Below, one piece after another: positions 6,538-19,288 of a stretch of DNA of 19,288 bases. The stretch lies in UHGV virus genome UHGV-1843802. One strand, given 5' to 3'. A program made the translations under genes and the position numbers. This DNA is from a virus. The notes under the pieces are model-generated. The model was not told where the DNA came from, ran no database searches, and saw nothing but the letters and a program-made list of their open reading frames with translations. Within the stretch, counting starts at the first letter, position 1. The number at the start of each line of letters is the position of its first letter.

Positions 6538-6658
6538 GGTGTAAGAATTGCCCTCAATTAAATACGATCGGTGTAATATTTGCCCTCAAAAGGTGTAAGA
6601 TTTGCCCTCAAAAGGTGTAGTAATTGCCCTCAAAGTGATGTAAAAATTGCCCTCACCA
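6538..6658 (+). repeat. Five direct iterons (about 20 bp, mostly 22-bp spacing) immediately upstream of the initiator gene
   Basis: GGTGTAAGAATTGCCCTCAA (6538-6557), GGTGTAATATTTGCCCTCAA (6570-6589), GGTGTAAGATTTGCCCTCAA (6592-6611), GGTGTAGTAATTGCCCTCAA (6614-6633), and a degenerate GTGATGTAAAAATTGCCCTCAC (about 6635-6658). Consensus GGTGTAAnAATTGCCCTCAA. Confidence 0.85.
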
Positions 6659-6679
6659 TTCGAAGGATCACACAGGGTT

Positions 6680-7435
6680 ATGAACAGAGCGGAATTAACA
6701 GCAAAAGCCGTCAGCCTGATTGAGTCAGCGACACCTATTAGTCGTAGTTTGGCACAAGCCAATGAGATCACGGAGGCTGCTTATCACCTGACTCGCGACC
6801 AAAAGCGACTGTTGTTTATTGTGGTGGGAAGACTTCGCTATGCTTCTAAGGATGGCGTTCTTGGTTCAGGTGCCTGTGAGTTGACGGTCAACGAATATGC
6901 AGAGATGTATAATTTGCCCTCTGCTGAAGCCAGCAAGGATATTCGTAAGGCCATTTCAGGGCTTAGCGAGAAGAAAGTTACGATATATAACCCTGATGAA
7001 TCGACCGAATCAGAAGACAGTTATGAGTCTTATCCTTGGATGATTAAGGATGCCTATTCACCACGGCGCGGGACTTACATTATTCATCTTAATCCATATC
7101 TCATGCCGTTTTTTACTCTGCTTGATAAGAGATTCACAAGGCTGAATTTTACCGAAGTATCTCGCCTTACAAATCCTTATTCTATGCGGCTTTATGAGTC
7201 CTTATGCCAGTACAGGAAGGATGATGGAAGCGGCTTTGCCATACTTGGCGTCGAATGGATGCGGGAGCGTTATGGGTTACCAAAAAGCTATCAGCGGTAT
7301 GCCGAATTTAAGAGAAGTTTTTTAACGAAGGCTGTAGCAGAGATTGAAAAAAATACAAAAATGAAAATAGTCTTCTCAGAGGTGACGGAAGGCGGCAAAG
7401 TTACCAGGATAAAATTTACTTATCAGCAGTCTTAA
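6680..7435 (+). CDS. repE: Iteron-binding replication initiator, 251 aa, resembling F-plasmid RepE (RepFIA)
   Basis: ATG at 6680; the track's upstream TTG at 6647 lies inside the fifth iteron. Motifs shared with recalled F RepE: EAAYHLTRDQKRLLF, SAEASKDIRKA, YESYPWMIKDAYSPRRGTYIIHLNPYLMPFF, NPYSMRLYESLCQYRKDDGSG. Same length as RepE and flanked by iterons on both sides. Confidence 0.85.
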   Translation: MNRAELTAKAVSLIESATPISRSLAQANEITEAAYHLTRDQKRLLFIVVGRLRYASKDGVLGSGACELTVNEYAEMYNLPSAEASKDIRKAISGLSEKKVTIYNPDESTESEDSYESYPWMIKDAYSPRRGTYIIHLNPYLMPFFTLLDKRFTRLNFTEVSRLTNPYSMRLYESLCQYRKDDGSGFAILGVEWMRERYGLPKSYQRYAEFKRSFLTKAVAEIEKNTKMKIVFSEVTEGGKVTRIKFTYQQS

Positions 7436-14915: not shown

Positions 14916-15073
14916 GGTTAAGCCCTAAATTCGGGCGCGGCGTGAAGGTTCTTTTGACGGGCTAACAATACCTACTTTGTGATTTAGTCAATAGGTTTAG
15001 TAAAATAAAATCTATTAACACGCATGTTGTTATGTGATTTAATTTTAGTTTTCTAACACAAAACATTAGAGTT

Positions 15074-15466
15074 ATGGCGTATCGAATCTTTGTTTCGTAT
15101 AAAAATGGCGCTAAGAGCCACTCTCTGAACACAACAAGTCGCTTTCTTGTTGAGGCGCAGTTGGCATCAATTCTTGCCGAAAGTGAGATACTCTCGCTCG
15201 CTGAACGGATCGTTATCCAGTTTTCTGGTAGAGATATACTCAATGTCCCCGCCCTCACCCCGGCATCCGAAGTTATGGAATCAATTAAATGGCCTGTATG
15301 CGGATGTCCTGCCAGGGTTGAAGAGCCGGTAACTGCAACGCTCTACATGCCGAAAGCTGTAAGAGATTGGCTTGCTATGGTTGGCAATGGGAAAGTCAGT
15401 GCTGGACTTCGCAAGTTAATTGAAATGGCAGATATTCCTGAGTTAAAAAATGCATGGCGACAATGA
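15074..15466 (+). CDS. Hypothetical protein, 130 aa, with a C-terminal ribbon-helix-helix-like DNA-binding motif; first gene of a two-gene accessory operon
   Basis: ATG at 15074 after a 158-bp AT-rich region divergent from the capsid operon. The C-terminal segment PVTATLYMPKAVRDWLAMVGNGKVSAGLRKLIEMA has the strand-helix-helix pattern of Arc/CopG-type RHH domains. The N-terminal 90 residues are unassigned. Confidence 0.55.
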   Translation: MAYRIFVSYKNGAKSHSLNTTSRFLVEAQLASILAESEILSLAERIVIQFSGRDILNVPALTPASEVMESIKWPVCGCPARVEEPVTATLYMPKAVRDWLAMVGNGKVSAGLRKLIEMADIPELKNAWRQ

Positions 15467-15482
15467 GTAAACAAGGGACAAA

Positions 15483-15941
15483 ATGAGTCACGTTAACCCA
15501 TCAAAAACACAATATCGCTTAATGCTGGCGATCGCGTCAGCTATACCAACCAGCCTGAATCCCCCGGCAGGCTATCCCGCTGTTGTTGATGATTGTTTTC
15601 AGTATTACGGAGAAGACATCCTGAGCCAGTCCAAAGCGCTCAAGCAGTTATGTAAGGCAGGTATTCTTCACTGTATCGGAGATCCGGACGATTTTGTTGT
15701 TATGCTGGCGGATCGTGACTCTTTTCTACTGTCCTGGAAAGCCGGTGCGCGCGAAGCACGTTTGGGGAATGGTATTGGTTACATAGACTATAGTGATTTT
15801 CCGCTGGCATTTGCTGGTGGATATATGCATTGGCATGAGCGAAATAGAGGCCGTCAGCGTCAGTATCGCTTGAGTGACTTTAACGTCTGTCACGGTTTCG
15901 AAGAAGCTGACAGCCAGGACATCTGGCTTCAGGAGCCTTGA
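15483..15941 (+). CDS. Hypothetical protein, 152 aa, unknown function; second gene of the accessory operon
   Basis: ATG at 15483 with an AAGGGA ribosome-binding site 4-5 nt upstream, 16 nt after the upstream stop. Its 3' end overlaps the convergent spanin-like gene by 13 bp. No recognisable motif. Confidence 0.55.
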   Translation: MSHVNPSKTQYRLMLAIASAIPTSLNPPAGYPAVVDDCFQYYGEDILSQSKALKQLCKAGILHCIGDPDDFVVMLADRDSFLLSWKAGAREARLGNGIGYIDYSDFPLAFAGGYMHWHERNRGRQRQYRLSDFNVCHGFEEADSQDIWLQEP

Positions 15942-16261
15942 TCCCCCTTCCCTTCCCAAATCTCCCTGTTTCTTTGGTTATTCAGTGCGTTTCGTTGGTT
16001 GCATTCGTCGATCGTGCTGAATAACTGTTCAGCGTATGTCGGATACTTGTTTAACAGCACTGGCGTGTCCTCTGGCACTAAACAAGGGGAGTAATCAATC
16101 AGATTTGCCTGCGGCTTGCTGGTGGCTTCTACGGTAATTTTCACTGGCACGCTGGTTGATGGCTTTTGCCCGTTCCCGCTGCATCCTGATAACGTCATCA
16201 GGCACACGCACATCGTTAATCCCAGCACGGCGTAACGCATTTTCAAGGCGAGTGATTTCAT
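15929..16261 (-). CDS. Putative o-spanin (Rz1-like outer-membrane lipoprotein), 110 aa precursor
   Basis: Lipoprotein signal with lipobox LSGC (MKSLALKMRYAVLGLTMCVCLMTLSG-C) and Ser at +2. The mature part contains Pro and Cys. The gene starts inside the i-spanin-like ORF in a different frame and extends beyond its stop, the overlapped spanin architecture. Start is ATG 16261 (GAGG upstream) or ATG 16240. Confidence 0.5.
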   Translation of the reverse strand: MKSLALKMRYAVLGLTMCVCLMTLSGCSGNGQKPSTSVPVKITVEATSKPQANLIDYSPCLVPEDTPVLLNKYPTYAEQLFSTIDECNQRNALNNQRNREIWEGKGDQGS

Positions 16262-16568
16262 TCTGGCTTTCCTCTCGTTGTTTGATTAGGTTGGCATTCA
16301 GTTCTGCTGTTTTGCGCTGGTACTCCTTTTCCAGTGCTTTAATTCTTTCGTTTTCGGTCAGCATGGCTGAGCGAGCGTTCTCACTTAACTGTAATGCGGT
16401 AGAAAGCGTGTTGTTCGTGCTTTCCAGTTGTGATTTTGAGTCTTCAAGCGATCGGACATACCTGATGTGTTCGATAACTGCCGTCGTTGTTCGGTAAATT
16501 CCAGAAATGGCTAAAAGCGCAATTACAATCAAAATTATCTTTTTCAAAACCATCCTCTCCAGGTTCAT
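16095..16568 (-). CDS. Putative i-spanin (Rz-like), 157 aa: one N-terminal transmembrane helix followed by a coiled coil
   Basis: N-terminal hydrophobic segment KKIILIVIALLAISGIY, then a long charged helical region (LEDSKSQLESTNNTLSTALQLSENARSAMLTENERIKALEKEYQRKTAELNANLIKQREESQNEITRLENALRRAG). The lipoprotein gene is embedded in and overlaps it. No ribosome-binding site at the ATG at 16568. Confidence 0.5.
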   Translation of the reverse strand: MNLERMVLKKIILIVIALLAISGIYRTTTAVIEHIRYVRSLEDSKSQLESTNNTLSTALQLSENARSAMLTENERIKALEKEYQRKTAELNANLIKQREESQNEITRLENALRRAGINDVRVPDDVIRMQRERAKAINQRASENYRRSHQQAAGKSD

Positions 16569-16623: not shown

Positions 16624-17430
16624 CTATGGTTCCTTTTTGGTGTTCTTTTGGAGCGCATCGATAACGCCTTGTGGCATGATTAAACTGATTGCCGGACTCA
16701 TTACTGCATCATCCAGTAGAGAACCAGTTAACGTGATGGCGACAGCGTTCTCTAAACCTTTGGTTGCCTGAGTGGTTGACGTTTTAATGCGACCTGTAAG
16801 GGCTACGACACTCTCACTTGCTGAGTTAATTTCGGAGAGTAAAGCTTCGGCGGCTGTCACTGCTTCCCGTAAAGCATCAATTTCATCCTGAGTAATGACT
16901 GGAGCCTGAGCGCCCCCAGCACCACCCTGTCCACCATTGCTTTCACCACCACCAGCACTTCCGGCAGCTTCAATTTTTGCGTTAATGGCGTTCATGGCGG
17001 TTTTCAGAGCATCAAGTTTTAGCGCCGTCAATGCGTCCGTCAGAGATTGCGGAATGGAAACATTCCCCATTCCCTCAACAAGGGCGAAAGCAGGTATGGG
17101 GGTCAGCTCGTTACCTTTTGCGTAGCATTCCCAGCCAATCTTCATCTGTAACAGCTCTGATGGTTTGGTGTATGGGGAAAGAGAATCAGCCAGTAATGAA
17201 GACGCTTTGCTGGCCTCATTGAGCTGTTCAGAAAAGCCAAGCAATTGAGTAGTCCAGGCCGAAACAGAATCAGGATAGGTTTTATCGGCGTGAACTATTC
17301 CCTGTATGGCGCTGGCGAGCGATGAGGCTTTTACAGAAGCTGCCCGGCTTATGGTTATAGATTCTGGTGTAGAGATACCGGCATCTGACAGAATTTTGAA
17401 GGCTTTAACTTCACCTATTGAATCAAGCAT
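16624..17430 (-). CDS. Hypothetical protein, 268 aa, Ala/Ser/Leu-rich and predicted helical with a Gly-rich linker (AAGSAGGGESNGGQGGAGGAQAP); translationally coupled to the upstream PAAR-like gene
   Basis: The ATG at 17430 overlaps the PAAR-like gene stop (TAATG). The track's longer 301-aa version would start inside the PAAR-like gene in another frame. No catalytic motif and no transmembrane segment. Confidence 0.55.
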   Translation of the reverse strand: MLDSIGEVKAFKILSDAGISTPESITISRAASVKASSLASAIQGIVHADKTYPDSVSAWTTQLLGFSEQLNEASKASSLLADSLSPYTKPSELLQMKIGWECYAKGNELTPIPAFALVEGMGNVSIPQSLTDALTALKLDALKTAMNAINAKIEAAGSAGGGESNGGQGGAGGAQAPVITQDEIDALREAVTAAEALLSEINSASESVVALTGRIKTSTTQATKGLENAVAITLTGSLLDDAVMSPAISLIMPQGVIDALQKNTKKEP

Positions 17431-17714
17431 TATGCAACCTGAAAAATATCCTCGCCGTTGGCGATAACAGAACCACAAGAAAGCGGATCGCCTACACAGA
17501 CAACTCCCTTTCCACCTATCGAAAACCATACTCGCGTCGATACAGCTGCCCCTGGATGTGCACTGTTACCGTCAGTGTGACTGGGAAACATGGCACCATC
17601 TACAACAACTGGCTTACCGTTAACGGTGAACCAGGGAACAGTTTCAGCTACCAGTCGCGGCGGAAATCCTCCGTGACCAGAACAAAGGGTGTCGCTGGTG
17701 GCTATTGCGCTCAT
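17430..17714 (-). CDS. PAAR-like domain protein, 94 aa (putative tail-spike tip protein)
   Basis: ATG at 17714 with a near-consensus ribosome-binding site (AGGAGGT, 6-nt spacer) on the minus strand. The sequence CSGHGG...TVNGKPVVVDGAMF...HPGAAVS...SIGGKGVVCVGDPLSCGSVIANG follows the pattern of PAAR-repeat domains (HGG, then NGKP-AAR-GD, repeated, with conserved Cys and Gly). The motifs are divergent, so this is a provisional call. Confidence 0.55.
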   Translation of the reverse strand: MSAIATSDTLCSGHGGFPPRLVAETVPWFTVNGKPVVVDGAMFPSHTDGNSAHPGAAVSTRVWFSIGGKGVVCVGDPLSCGSVIANGEDIFQVA

Positions 17715-17953: not shown

Positions 17954-17979
17954 ATGTGTCTCAGAAGTGGAGCAAGAAG

Positions 17980-18936
17980 ATGCGCATTTTTATCGATGAT
18001 GGTTCAACCAATATCAAAATGCTGTGGGAGCACGACGGGGAAACTCGCACTCACATCAGCCCTAACAGCTTTAAGCGCGGATGGTCAGCAACATTTGGTG
18101 CTGGCAAGCCGTTTAACTATGTCATTGACGACGAAAAGTATTCGTATGATTTGATCTCGCCAGATGTTCTGCCGACGAATAACGTGGAATGGCAATACAG
18201 CCCGCTTAACGTCCTGGCTGTTCACCATGCCCTGCTGACAAGTGGCATTGAGCCGCAGGAAGTAGAAATTGTGGTCACGCTGCCTCTGGCGGAGTTTTAC
18301 GACGTCGACGCGCAATACAATCTCGATAACATCGAGCGCAAGAAAGCCAGCCTTATGCGCCCCGTCACGCTGAATAAAGGCAATGTGTTCACGATTAAGA
18401 AAGTTACGGTACGCCCGGAGTCTATTCCGGCAGGAATTGGCCTGTGCGACAATCTGAACCCTGCCCATTCTGTTCTTATCGTCGATTTGGGTGGAACTAC
18501 CCTTGATGTTTCAATGGTCGCCGGGCAAATGACGGCAGTTTCCCGTGTTTTTGGCGATTCGAATCTTGGTGTATCACTGGTCACCAGGGAAGTAAGGCAA
18601 GCACTTGCCAGAGCCAATACCGAAACGTCAAATTACAATGTCGATCAGCTCATTATTAACCGCCACGATGAAGATTATCTGAACGACAATATCAATGACC
18701 CATCAGCGATTGGTGATGTGAAAAAGGCCATTGCCGCAAGCATTGACCGTCTGCGTACCCGCGTTCTTGATGTGATTGGCGACTTTAAAGGATATACGCA
18801 TGTCATGGTGATCGGTGGTGGCGCACCGCTGGTGGCAGATGCAATTCGCGAGCAAGTTAATATTCGTGATGACCGTTTCTTCGTGGCGGATGACCCGCAA
18901 CTTGCTCTTGTTCATGGCCTGAAAGCAATCGGTTAA
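17980..18936 (+). CDS. parM: ParM, actin-like plasmid segregation ATPase (type II partition), 318 aa
   Basis: ATG at 17980 with a GGAG ribosome-binding site about 8 nt upstream; the track's GTG at 17956 is less likely. The N-terminus MRIFIDDGSTNIKMLW and the motifs HISPNSFKR, NVLAVHHALLTSG, ESIPAG, DLGGTTLDVS, GDSNLGVSLVT and GYTHVMVIGGGA match recalled R1 ParM (StbA). Confidence 0.9.
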   Translation: MRIFIDDGSTNIKMLWEHDGETRTHISPNSFKRGWSATFGAGKPFNYVIDDEKYSYDLISPDVLPTNNVEWQYSPLNVLAVHHALLTSGIEPQEVEIVVTLPLAEFYDVDAQYNLDNIERKKASLMRPVTLNKGNVFTIKKVTVRPESIPAGIGLCDNLNPAHSVLIVDLGGTTLDVSMVAGQMTAVSRVFGDSNLGVSLVTREVRQALARANTETSNYNVDQLIINRHDEDYLNDNINDPSAIGDVKKAIAASIDRLRTRVLDVIGDFKGYTHVMVIGGGAPLVADAIREQVNIRDDRFFVADDPQLALVHGLKAIG

Positions 18937-18949
18937 CGAGGTAATGTCC

Positions 18950-19288
18950 ATGTCTCAGGAACGTAAGAAAGTGATGATTTATCTTCGCCCAGAGGCTTAT
19001 GCCAATGAAAAGGCGGCGAGCGAGAAGATAAAAAAACATAGCGATATGGCAAGAACCGCATTGTTGGCAGGGCTTGCGCTGGGAGAAGTCGATAGCAGGC
19101 TTCCAGGATTACTGGCTTCCCTGCTGACCGAAGACAATAACCCGGAGCTGATCCGAAAAATGCTGGCATCCTTCCTGGAACTACCAGCTGCGGTTGAGGA
19201 GCGCCCTGCCTCCATTGAGCCAGTGAAGGAGCAAGTTGTTGCCAAAAGCGCGTCGGCGCGCAATCTGGCTGACTCTCTACCTGATTGA
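18950..19288 (+). CDS. parR: ParR-like centromere-binding adaptor, about 112 aa; complete, with its stop at the window end
   Basis: Located 8-14 nt after parM. The segment ARTALLAGLALGEVDSRLPGLLASLL resembles recalled R1 ParR (RAALTAGLALYRQDPRTPFLLCELL). ATG at 18950 (GAGG 9 nt upstream) is preferred over ATG at 18944. Confidence 0.7.
   Translation: MSQERKKVMIYLRPEAYANEKAASEKIKKHSDMARTALLAGLALGEVDSRLPGLLASLLTEDNNPELIRKMLASFLELPAAVEERPASIEPVKEQVVAKSASARNLADSLPD

What the first reader, a model, noticed from the sequence alone, without database searches (positions are those of the whole stretch)
15074..15941. Two-gene accessory operon (RHH-like regulator plus unknown 152-aa protein) wedged between the capsid operon and the lysis genes
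These are the only plus-strand genes in an otherwise minus-strand phage block. They sit in a classic accessory-gene position: divergent from the late operon across a 158-bp AT-rich region, and convergent with the spanin-like pair, overlapping it by 13 bp. Gene 1 carries a C-terminal ribbon-helix-helix-like motif behind an unassigned 90-residue N-terminal domain. Gene 2 has a good ribosome-binding site 16 nt downstream and no motif I can place. A DNA-binding protein paired with a small effector-sized protein, outside the structural and lysis modules, is the signature of a toxin-antitoxin, superinfection-exclusion or defence/anti-defence pair. I cannot assign either protein to a known family by eye, so this is my strongest candidate for something undescribed.
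Basis: partly seen in the sequence, partly recalled or inferred. Interest (0 to 1): 0.65.

Follow-up and report, generated by a model that had tools for sequence, protein, structure and literature searches.

The report
Repressor-controlled early operon, not a toxin pair
The two genes are real, strongly conserved genes of unknown function (orf52 and orf53) in a D6-type P1-like phage-plasmid; they look like a repressor-controlled early operon made of two independently inherited genes, not a toxin-antitoxin or defence cassette.

Summary
The window is 98.6% identical to Escherichia phage D6. The two ORFs are D6 orf52 (130 aa, PHROG 7830) and orf53 (152 aa, PHROG 8101), both annotated as hypothetical.

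The coordinates, the 158-bp AT-rich gap, the 16-nt spacer with its ribosome-binding site, and the 13-bp convergent overlap with a spanin-like pair are all correct. Both genes are under strong purifying selection (dN/dS 0.01-0.15).

They are not a cassette:
- orf52 lies divergent from the major-capsid gene in five genera, with different genes downstream.
- orf53 homologues in sister lineages lie tens of kilobases away, in the cre-c8-...-ref operon.
- About 10% of E. coli D6-like plasmids keep orf52 but replace orf53 with a c4-icd-antirepressor module.
- Pfam, NCBIfam and PADLOC give no hit.

A motif 11 nt upstream of orf52 (TTTTCTAACACAAA) recurs in D6 almost only in intergenic regions, at places where P1 has C1 operators. 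It is probably the D6 C1 operator, so the operon is probably silent in the prophage and switched on early.

Orf52 is basic, with a weakly supported C-terminal RHH-like element. Orf53 is acidic, with a winged-helix-like N-terminal domain and an RMF-like hairpin. Their functions remain unknown. Interest is moderate to low.

The parts
14916..15073 (.). Divergent control region between capsid gene 23 (-) and orf52 (+). The capsid-proximal half is conserved across genera. The orf52-proximal half is AT-rich.
   Evidence: The GCCCTAAATTCGGGC hairpin (14922-14936) and TTTTGAC are conserved in the D6-like, Citrobacter and Pantoea elements.
15015..15043 (+). Candidate sigma-70 promoter for orf52, read by eye: -35 TTAACA at 15015-15020, a 17-nt spacer containing TGn, and -10 TTTAAT at 15038-15043. 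The scan tool instead lists TTGTGA-18-TAAAAT at 14977-15006.
   Evidence: Sequence and scan. This is inference only, and the scan count does not exceed the shuffles.
15049..15062 (+). Probable C1-repressor operator (TTTTCTAACACAAA), ending 11 nt before the orf52 ATG.
   Evidence: It is the only match in the window. In D6 the motif recurs at c1-upstream, icd-ant/repL, hrdC (an inverted pair), ref/orf88 and dre/orf117: the 18-mer at <=2 mismatches occurs 4 times against 0.0 in shuffles, and all hits listed at <=4 mismatches are intergenic. It is conserved in relatives whose Orf52 is only 45-81% identical.
15074..15466 (+). orf52 (D6 orf52; PHROG 7830). A 130-aa basic protein with an N-terminal alpha/beta domain (residues 1-70), a linker carrying a conserved WP..G, and a C-terminal beta-alpha-alpha RHH-like element (residues 85-118).
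15472..15477 (+). Ribosome-binding site AAGGGA for orf53.
15483..15941 (+). orf53 (D6 orf53; PHROG 8101). A 152-aa acidic protein with a winged-helix-like N-terminal domain (residues 8-75), an RMF-like helical hairpin (residues 78-121) and an invariant C-H-G tail (residues 136-138).
15929..15941 (.). 13-bp convergent overlap of the orf53 3' end with the stop region of the lipoprotein (o-spanin-like) gene orf54. No intrinsic terminator is predicted here.

Best explanation
This is a bicistronic early operon of a D6-type, P1-like phage-plasmid. It is probably repressed in the plasmid prophage by the phage C1 repressor and switched on after induction or infection. It was built from two genes with separate evolutionary histories.

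Gene 1 (orf52) is a positionally fixed gene, always transcribed divergently from the major-capsid late operon. In some relatives it is the first gene of a long early operon. It encodes a small basic protein with an N-terminal alpha/beta domain and a C-terminal RHH-like beta-alpha-alpha element. I infer that it is a DNA-binding transcription factor acting on the shared 158-bp control region, either autoregulating or tuning the timing of the neighbouring late capsid/tail operon.

Gene 2 (orf53) is a mobile but very strongly constrained acidic protein: a winged-helix-like N-terminal domain, an RMF-like helical hairpin and an invariant Cys-His-Gly tail. In sister lineages it sits in the cre-c8-...-ref early operon, and in the D6 lineage it lies next to orf52 instead. 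I infer that it works by binding a protein or RNA partner early in infection (establishment, recombination, host takeover or anti-defence), not as a toxin.

Shown: gene reality, purifying selection, synteny patterns, motif recurrence and fold-level features. Inferred: C1 binding, early timing, DNA binding by Orf52 and the binding role of Orf53.
For: Identity and reality:
- The window is 98.6% identical to D6, and the genes are D6 orf52 and orf53.
- dN/dS is 0.01-0.15 for orf52 and 0.02-0.03 for orf53, against 0.03-0.05 for the capsid gene.

Independent inheritance:
- An orf52 homologue lies divergent from the capsid gene in Pantoea pEuc3, Citrobacter, Enterobacter and a Xenorhabdus megaplasmid. 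Downstream are a convergent 553-aa gene, a ~10-kb operon of ~24 small genes, orf53, or NinX plus RelE/ParE.
- orf53 homologues lie in cre -> c8-like -> orf53h -> orf116-like -> dut, or upstream of Ref, in Citrobacter, Leclercia, Pantoea, Vibrio and two metagenomic P1-like contigs.
- D6 has dre-orf117-orf116-dut without orf53.
- orf53 alone is replaced by a C4 RNA-icd-ORF6N module in E. coli AR_0119.
- 11 of the 101 E. coli genomes that carry the locus cover less than 80% of the query. One listed example covers only the intergenic region and orf52.

Regulation:
- The operator-like motif at 15049-15062 recurs in D6 at positions matching P1's C1-controlled genes. Oref and Odmt are annotated in the P1 record. 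The D6 sites are listed.
- The Citrobacter orf52-upstream region likewise shares a different motif with its ref-upstream region.

Proteins:
- AF2 pLDDT is 93.6 for Orf53 and 83.8 for Orf52.
- pI is about 5 in all 21 Orf53 relatives, and 8-9.8 in 12 of 14 Orf52 relatives.
- hhalign places the Orf52 C-terminus in RHH register.
Against: - No experiment or transcript data were available, so C1 binding to the motif is inferred from position and from a loose resemblance to the P1 operator (CTAA..AAAT).
- The P1 consensus ATTGCTCTAATAAATTT is absent from the window at <=3 mismatches.
- RHH assignment is weak: no Pfam hit, 19% hhalign probability, and the beta-strand is not formed in the monomer model.
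- hhalign against the RMF sequence gives 2% probability.
- Orf53 is acidic and its putative recognition helix is not conserved, so even nucleic-acid binding is uncertain.
- The adjacency of the two genes is maintained across the whole D6/Enterobacter lineage, so a lineage-specific functional link cannot be excluded.
Confidence: 0.5

Rival explanations
1. Toxin-antitoxin, abortive-infection or superinfection-exclusion pair. Orf52 would be an RHH antitoxin or regulator, and Orf53 the toxin or effector expressed from the plasmid prophage.
For: - The two small genes are adjacent and probably co-transcribed.
- Orf52 has an RHH-like C-terminus behind an alpha/beta domain, which is a HicB-like architecture.
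- In Xenorhabdus the same slot holds RelE/ParE and HicB-fragment genes.
Against: - PADLOC, Pfam and NCBIfam give no hit for either protein.
- The pair is split in Citrobacter, Leclercia and Pantoea, and orf52 stands without orf53 downstream in Pantoea and in the ORF6N variants.
- The recombination histories are discordant.
- Orf53 is as constrained as the capsid protein, is acidic, and has no toxin-like fold.
- The operator-like site predicts repression in the lysogen.
- D6-type plasmids already carry phd/doc and RelE/HigA modules.
Confidence: 0.07
2. Orf53 is an early anti-defence protein, for example an inhibitor of a restriction or other immune system. Orf52 would be merely the neighbouring early regulator.
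For: - Orf53 is small and acidic (pI about 5 in all 21 relatives).
- It is probably expressed early.
- It is found on P1-like phage-plasmids and related Vibrio phages in every context examined.
- It can be replaced by another early module.
Against: - Purifying selection is very strong and uniform (dN/dS 0.02-0.03), which is unusual for arms-race proteins.
- Its usual neighbours are recombination and establishment genes (cre, c8, ref, rdgC), which suggests a housekeeping early role.
Confidence: 0.2
3. Orf52 is a head-morphogenesis or capsid-accessory protein kept next to the capsid gene for co-inheritance, not a regulator.
For: It is adjacent to the major-capsid gene in five genera.
Against: - It is always on the opposite strand, outside the late operon, and behind an operator-like site typical of early genes.
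- In Citrobacter it heads a long early-type operon containing ead/Ea22-like, ASCH and HNH genes.
- It evolves much faster than the capsid protein: 45% against 80% identity.
- P1, which has a homologous capsid, lacks it.
Confidence: 0.1
4. Orf52 is a plasmid-maintenance DNA-binding protein, that is, an RHH centromere-binding or copy-control factor like ParG, ParR or omega. It would occupy the slot where P1 carries parS-parB-parA-repA.
For: - In P1 the region between gene 23 and mlp/ppfA holds the par/rep module.
- RHH centromere-binding proteins are common (established knowledge).
- Orf52 is basic.
Against: - No partner ATPase lies adjacent.
- D6-type plasmids have StbA/StbB and a ParA-like pair nearby, and a Rep3-type repA elsewhere.
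- No iterated repeat array occurs in the 158-bp region, only one 9-nt direct repeat pair.
- The operator-like site argues for lytic-phase expression.
Confidence: 0.06

Closest known systems
C1-controlled early operons of phage P1 (ref, uhr-hrdC-dmt, ban, immI)
   Same: A short asymmetric operator-like motif lies between the promoter and the first gene. The same motif occurs in D6 at the counterparts of P1's C1-controlled genes, and one site is an inverted pair like P1 Oban.
   Different: The operator sequence differs from the P1 consensus, with no match at <=3 mismatches. P1 has no orf52 or orf53 homologue. Binding by C1 was not tested.
Ribbon-helix-helix phage and plasmid regulators (Arc, Mnt, CopG, ParD, NikR N-domain)
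   Same: The Orf52 C-terminus has a strand-like segment (TLYMP), helix A, a G-x-x-S turn and helix B. hhalign aligns these in the RHH register. The domain is basic.
   Different: The RHH-like unit is C-terminal, behind a 70-residue alpha/beta domain. Helix A is about 3 residues shorter. No Pfam or PDB sequence match was found, and hhalign probability is only 19%.
HicB-type antitoxins (N-terminal alpha/beta domain plus C-terminal RHH or HTH)
   Same: The overall two-domain architecture and the size (about 130 aa) are the same (established knowledge).
Ribosome modulation factor (RMF) / Rmf-CrpP fold
   Different: No Pfam or NCBIfam RMF hit. hhalign probability is 2%. In Orf53 the hairpin is embedded between a winged-helix-like domain and a C-H-G tail. 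Ribosome binding is untested.
Winged-helix proteins (MarR/ArsR/SlyA; Cdc6/ORC winged-helix domains)
   Different: The scores are low. The putative recognition helix is not conserved and the protein is acidic. There is no sequence-family match.

Membership tests
Type II toxin-antitoxin module | The two genes are inherited and conserved as an adjacent pair. | tested here: not met
   The pair is adjacent only in the D6/Enterobacter lineage. It is about 58 kb apart in Pantoea pEuc3 and in separate operons in Citrobacter. orf53 is replaced while orf52 is kept in AR_0119. dS values are discordant.
Type II toxin-antitoxin module | One product belongs to a known toxin fold or family. | tested here: not met
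Type II toxin-antitoxin module | Expression in the plasmid or prophage state, with autoregulation by the antitoxin. | not testable with these tools
   Indirect evidence only. The operator-like motif shared with c1, immI, ref and hrdC sites suggests repression in the lysogen.
Known anti-phage defence systems (PADLOC) | Match to a defence-system protein model. | tested here: not met
   No families at E<=1 for either protein.
Ribbon-helix-helix (CopG/Arc/MetJ) superfamily (Orf52 C-terminus) | Sequence-profile match to RHH families. | tested here: not met
   No RHH model hit at E<=10 for any of 12 family members. No RHH chain was found in the PDB profile search of the C-terminal region.
Ribbon-helix-helix (CopG/Arc/MetJ) superfamily (Orf52 C-terminus) | Beta-strand, helix A, G-x-S/T turn and helix B in the correct register. 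| tested here: inconclusive
   AF2 predicts helices at 94-103 and 108-118 after an extended segment.
RMF / Rmf-CrpP family (Orf53 residues 78-121) | Sequence membership (Pfam RMF, NCBIfam Rmf/CrpP). | tested here: not met
   No hit.
RMF / Rmf-CrpP family (Orf53 residues 78-121) | Two-helix hairpin fold superposable on RMF. | tested here: inconclusive
Winged-helix DNA-binding domain (Orf53 N-terminus) | H-S-H-H-wing topology, with fold matches. | tested here: inconclusive
P1-type C1 regulon (operator-bearing early operon) | Operator motif upstream of the first gene, shared with other C1-controlled loci. | tested here: met
   TTTTCTAACACAAA lies at 15049-15062. The same motif occurs at the c1, icd-ant, hrdC (x2), ref/orf88 and dre/orf117 intergenic regions of D6, 4 times against 0.0 expected for the 18-mer at <=2 mismatches. 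P1 Oref and Odmt lie at the orthologous places.
P1-type C1 regulon (operator-bearing early operon) | Binding and repression by the C1 repressor. | not testable with these tools
   This needs EMSA or footprinting, or expression data.

The most novel reading that the evidence does not exclude
Orf53 would found a previously undescribed early-protein family, found so far only on P1-like phage-plasmids and related Vibrio phages. Its RMF-like hairpin and invariant Cys-His-Gly tail would dock onto a host machine, such as the ribosome or a nucleic-acid-processing or defence complex, to help the element establish or take over the cell. Orf52 would be a new type of C-terminal-RHH regulator that links C1 derepression to the adjacent late capsid operon.
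Probability: 0.12. Interest if true: 0.6.

Novelty: new member of a known kind. Interest (0 to 1): 0.3.

Why it matters
D6-type phage-plasmids are common. The locus is on a plasmid in 101 of 5,426 complete E. coli genomes, and it also occurs in Salmonella and Shigella. These elements can carry resistance genes.

Knowing that this locus is a repressor-controlled early operon stops it being mis-scored as a defence or addiction island. It also flags two cheap genetic targets:
- a positionally fixed putative regulator beside the capsid late promoter;
- a protein as constrained as the capsid itself, whose function is entirely unknown.

The operator motif also gives a first map of the probable D6 C1 regulon. 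None of this overturns current views. It is an incremental annotation gain.

Tried and rejected
Searches that found nothing significant:
- Pfam, NCBIfam and PADLOC scans of both proteins and of all family members gave no meaningful hits.
- PHROGs gave only the two unknown-function families.
- PDB sequence-profile searches of both families and of the Orf52 C-terminus gave nothing below E 0.08.
- Foldseek against BFVD gave no hit at E<=0.001.
- The AFDB library was unavailable.

Hypotheses tested and rejected:
- P1 UpfA, which is also 130 aa and lies in the same region, is unrelated to either protein.
- The small ORFs upstream of orf53 homologues are not RHH-like. They are weak c8/orf117 homologues.
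- The P1 C1 operator consensus is not present in the window.

Resources that were not usable:
- The genome-contig scan found no relatives.
- The D6 genome paper (Gilcrease & Casjens 2018) and Sauer & McDermott 2004 are not held in the library.
- A literature search on phage-plasmid hotspots and anti-defence found nothing about these families.

Other negative results:
- GC content does not mark the genes as foreign: 46.6% and 48.8% against 46.8% for the window.
- The window has no Rfam match at gathering score.

Full report
**What is there.**
The window is a D6-type P1-like phage-plasmid. The segment 14900-16000 is 98.6% identical to Escherichia phage D6. The two ORFs are D6 orf52 and orf53, both annotated 'hypothetical'.

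The convergent neighbours are a lipobox lipoprotein ORF overlapping a membrane-anchored coiled-coil ORF. They are homologues of P1 mlp/ppfA, and RefSeq calls mlp 'Rz-like spanin', so 'spanin-like pair' is reasonable.

The statement that these are the only plus-strand genes is wrong. A repA-like gene (6647-7435) and stbA/stbB (17956-19288) are also on the plus strand.

**Are they real genes?**
Yes. Each matches one PHROG of unknown function over its full length (phrog_7830 and phrog_8101).

Against diverged relatives, dN/dS is 0.01-0.15 for orf52 and 0.02-0.03 for orf53. Capsid gene 23 gives 0.03-0.05 in the same comparisons. GC content equals that of the window.

The locus is on a plasmid, never on a chromosome and always in single copy, in 101 of 5,426 complete E. 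coli genomes. It is also in about 140 PLSDB plasmids, mostly of 85-95 kb.

**Known families.**
Neither protein hits Pfam, NCBIfam or PADLOC, even when all family members are scanned at permissive thresholds. PDB sequence-profile searches give nothing.

The orf53 family is small: 23 representatives among 1.84 billion clustered proteins, one of which is a spurious repeat translation.

**The pair is not a cassette.**
This is the main result.

orf52 homologues (26-81% identical) lie immediately divergent from the major-capsid gene in several lineages, with different genes downstream:
- D6-like plasmids and an Enterobacter hormaechei plasmid have orf53 downstream.
- Citrobacter portucalensis has a ~10-kb operon of about 24 small genes, including ead/Ea22-like, ASCH and HNH genes.
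- Pantoea eucalypti pEuc3 has a convergent 553-aa gene.
- A Xenorhabdus bovienii megaplasmid has NinX plus RelE/ParE.

orf53 homologues (28-39% identical) in Citrobacter, Leclercia, Pantoea and two metagenomic P1-like contigs lie elsewhere. The order there is pacB | c1 | cre -> c8-like -> orf53h -> orf116-like -> dut-like ... ref. In Vibrio plasmids the homologue sits just upstream of PadR and Ref. In Vibrio phage douglas 12A4 it is among genes that include RdgC and oligoribonuclease.

D6 itself has dre-orf117-orf116-dut without orf53. So the gene occupies different slots in the two lineages.

In E. coli AR_0119 and similar plasmids, orf53 alone is replaced by a complete immI-type module, while orf52 and the spanin-like genes stay 99% identical. 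That module consists of C4 antisense RNA, its a1b1 targets, icd and an ORF6N antirepressor.

Synonymous divergence is also discordant. In one plasmid pair, dS is 2.4 for orf52 and 0.41 for orf53.

P1 has neither gene. In P1 the same interval holds parS-parB-parA-repA-upfA, and UpfA is unrelated to either protein.

**Regulation.**
The 14-mer TTTTCTAACACAAA ends 11 nt before the orf52 ATG (15049-15062) and is unique in the window.

In the D6 genome the extended motif AATT(A/G)ATTTTCTAACACAAAT recurs at these sites:
- c1 upstream;
- between icd-ant and repL;
- upstream of hrdC-dcm-dam, as an inverted pair;
- between ref and the long orf88 operon;
- between dre and orf117.

For the 18-mer at <=2 mismatches there are 4 sites against 0.0 in shuffles, and all seven 18-mer hits at <=4 mismatches are intergenic. 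The looser 13-mer search at <=2 mismatches gives 9 hits against 2.8 expected, one of them inside sit. Site contexts are shown.

These are the places where P1 has C1 operators. Oref and Odmt are annotated in the P1 record. That c1 and immI are also C1-controlled in P1 rests on established knowledge of P1.

The motif loosely resembles the P1 operator ATTGCTCTAATAAATTT. It is conserved upstream of orf52 in relatives whose Orf52 is only 45-81% identical.

In the Citrobacter lineage a different motif (AAAATACCATAGATTTGA) is shared between the orf52-upstream and ref-upstream regions. This fits the same regulon logic with a different operator specificity.

I therefore infer that orf52-orf53 is C1-repressed in the prophage and expressed early. 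That is inference, not demonstration. The P1 consensus itself is absent from the window.

**Proteins.**
Orf53 folds confidently (pLDDT 93.6, pTM 0.89). It has three parts:
- an extended tail with an invariant Cys136-His137-Gly138.

Sequence profiles do not support RMF membership.

All 21 relatives are acidic, with pI 4.8-6.2. The most conserved part is the C-terminal half, not the putative recognition helix.

The Orf52 C-terminus aligns in RHH register with a small hand-made RHH profile, but only at 19% probability. The family is mostly basic. So 'RHH-like' is plausible but not established.

**Interpretation.**
The best-supported picture is an early, repressor-controlled operon assembled from two parts:
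- a positionally fixed, fast-evolving putative DNA-binding regulator (orf52), which sits head-to-head with the late capsid operon;
- a relocated, very strongly constrained acidic early protein (orf53), which normally belongs to the cre-c8-ref early operon.

A toxin-antitoxin, superinfection-exclusion or prophage-defence cassette is unlikely, for four reasons:
- the genes are not co-inherited;
- neither product shows a toxin or defence signature;
- the predicted regulation is the reverse of what such systems need;
- D6-type plasmids already carry phd/doc and RelE/HigA modules.

An anti-defence role for Orf53 alone is not excluded.

**Verdict.**
The 'pair' interpretation is not. The genes are already catalogued as hypothetical families, and their functions remain unknown. 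The new information is the synteny split, the probable C1 operator and regulon, and the domain-level description. Interest is moderate to low.

Noticed in passing
L008 2797-4380 (E. coli AR_0119 plasmid NZ_CP021537), equivalent to window 15467-15928: In some D6-like plasmids orf53 is replaced by an immI-type module on the opposite strand. The module holds C4 antisense RNA (RF01695, 71.7 bits), a1b1 targets (RF03163), an icd-like gene and an ORF6N antirepressor. orf52 and the spanin-like genes stay 99% identical. D6 itself already has two icd-antirepressor modules elsewhere (orf18/19 and orf82/83).
   Followed up: partly
window 15049-15062; D6 (MF356679) 194, 21269, 64111/64138, 76639, 89943: A recurrent asymmetric motif, AATT(A/G)ATTTTCTAACACAAAT, occurs in D6 intergenic regions at the counterparts of P1 C1 operators. 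One site is an inverted pair upstream of hrdC. It is probably the D6 C1 operator and gives a first map of the D6 C1 regulon.
   Followed up: yes
window 14922-14959: The capsid-gene leader contains a hairpin, GCCCTAAATTCGGGC (14922-14936), conserved across the D6-like, Citrobacter and Pantoea elements. It also contains a 17-nt element, TGAAGGTTCTTTTGACG (14943-14959), that recurs exactly, in inverted orientation, in the D6 mat/simB intergenic region (D6 72061). In Citrobacter a different exact ~20-nt repeat likewise links the capsid-upstream and mat-upstream regions. These may be late-promoter or leader elements.
   Followed up: partly
window 15929-16568: orf54 and orf55 form an overlapped spanin-like pair related to P1 mlp/ppfA. 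The longest orf54 ORF (110 aa, ATG at 16261) carries a signal peptide with lipobox LSGC, whereas the D6 GenBank record annotates a shorter 73-aa version. No intrinsic terminator is predicted between the convergent orf53 and orf54, so early transcripts may run antisense into the spanin genes.
   Followed up: partly
L048 30603-40676 (Citrobacter portucalensis plasmid NZ_CP099368): The orf52 homologue is the first gene of a ~10-kb same-strand run of about 24 small genes, including ead/Ea22-like, ASCH and HNH genes. This resembles D6's orf88-orf105 operon, which in D6 starts next to ref behind the same operator-like motif.
   Followed up: partly
window 16624-17714: The upfB homologue evolves very fast (40-60% identity where the capsid protein is 80-88%). 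The adjacent upfC homologue, a PAAR-domain protein, is well conserved (78-100%).
   Followed up: no
L007 4393-4848 (Enterobacter hormaechei p60214CZ_1): An intact orf53 homologue (82% identity) is present but not listed in the PLSDB gene table. 'Gaps' in that table should not be read as gene absence.
   Followed up: yes
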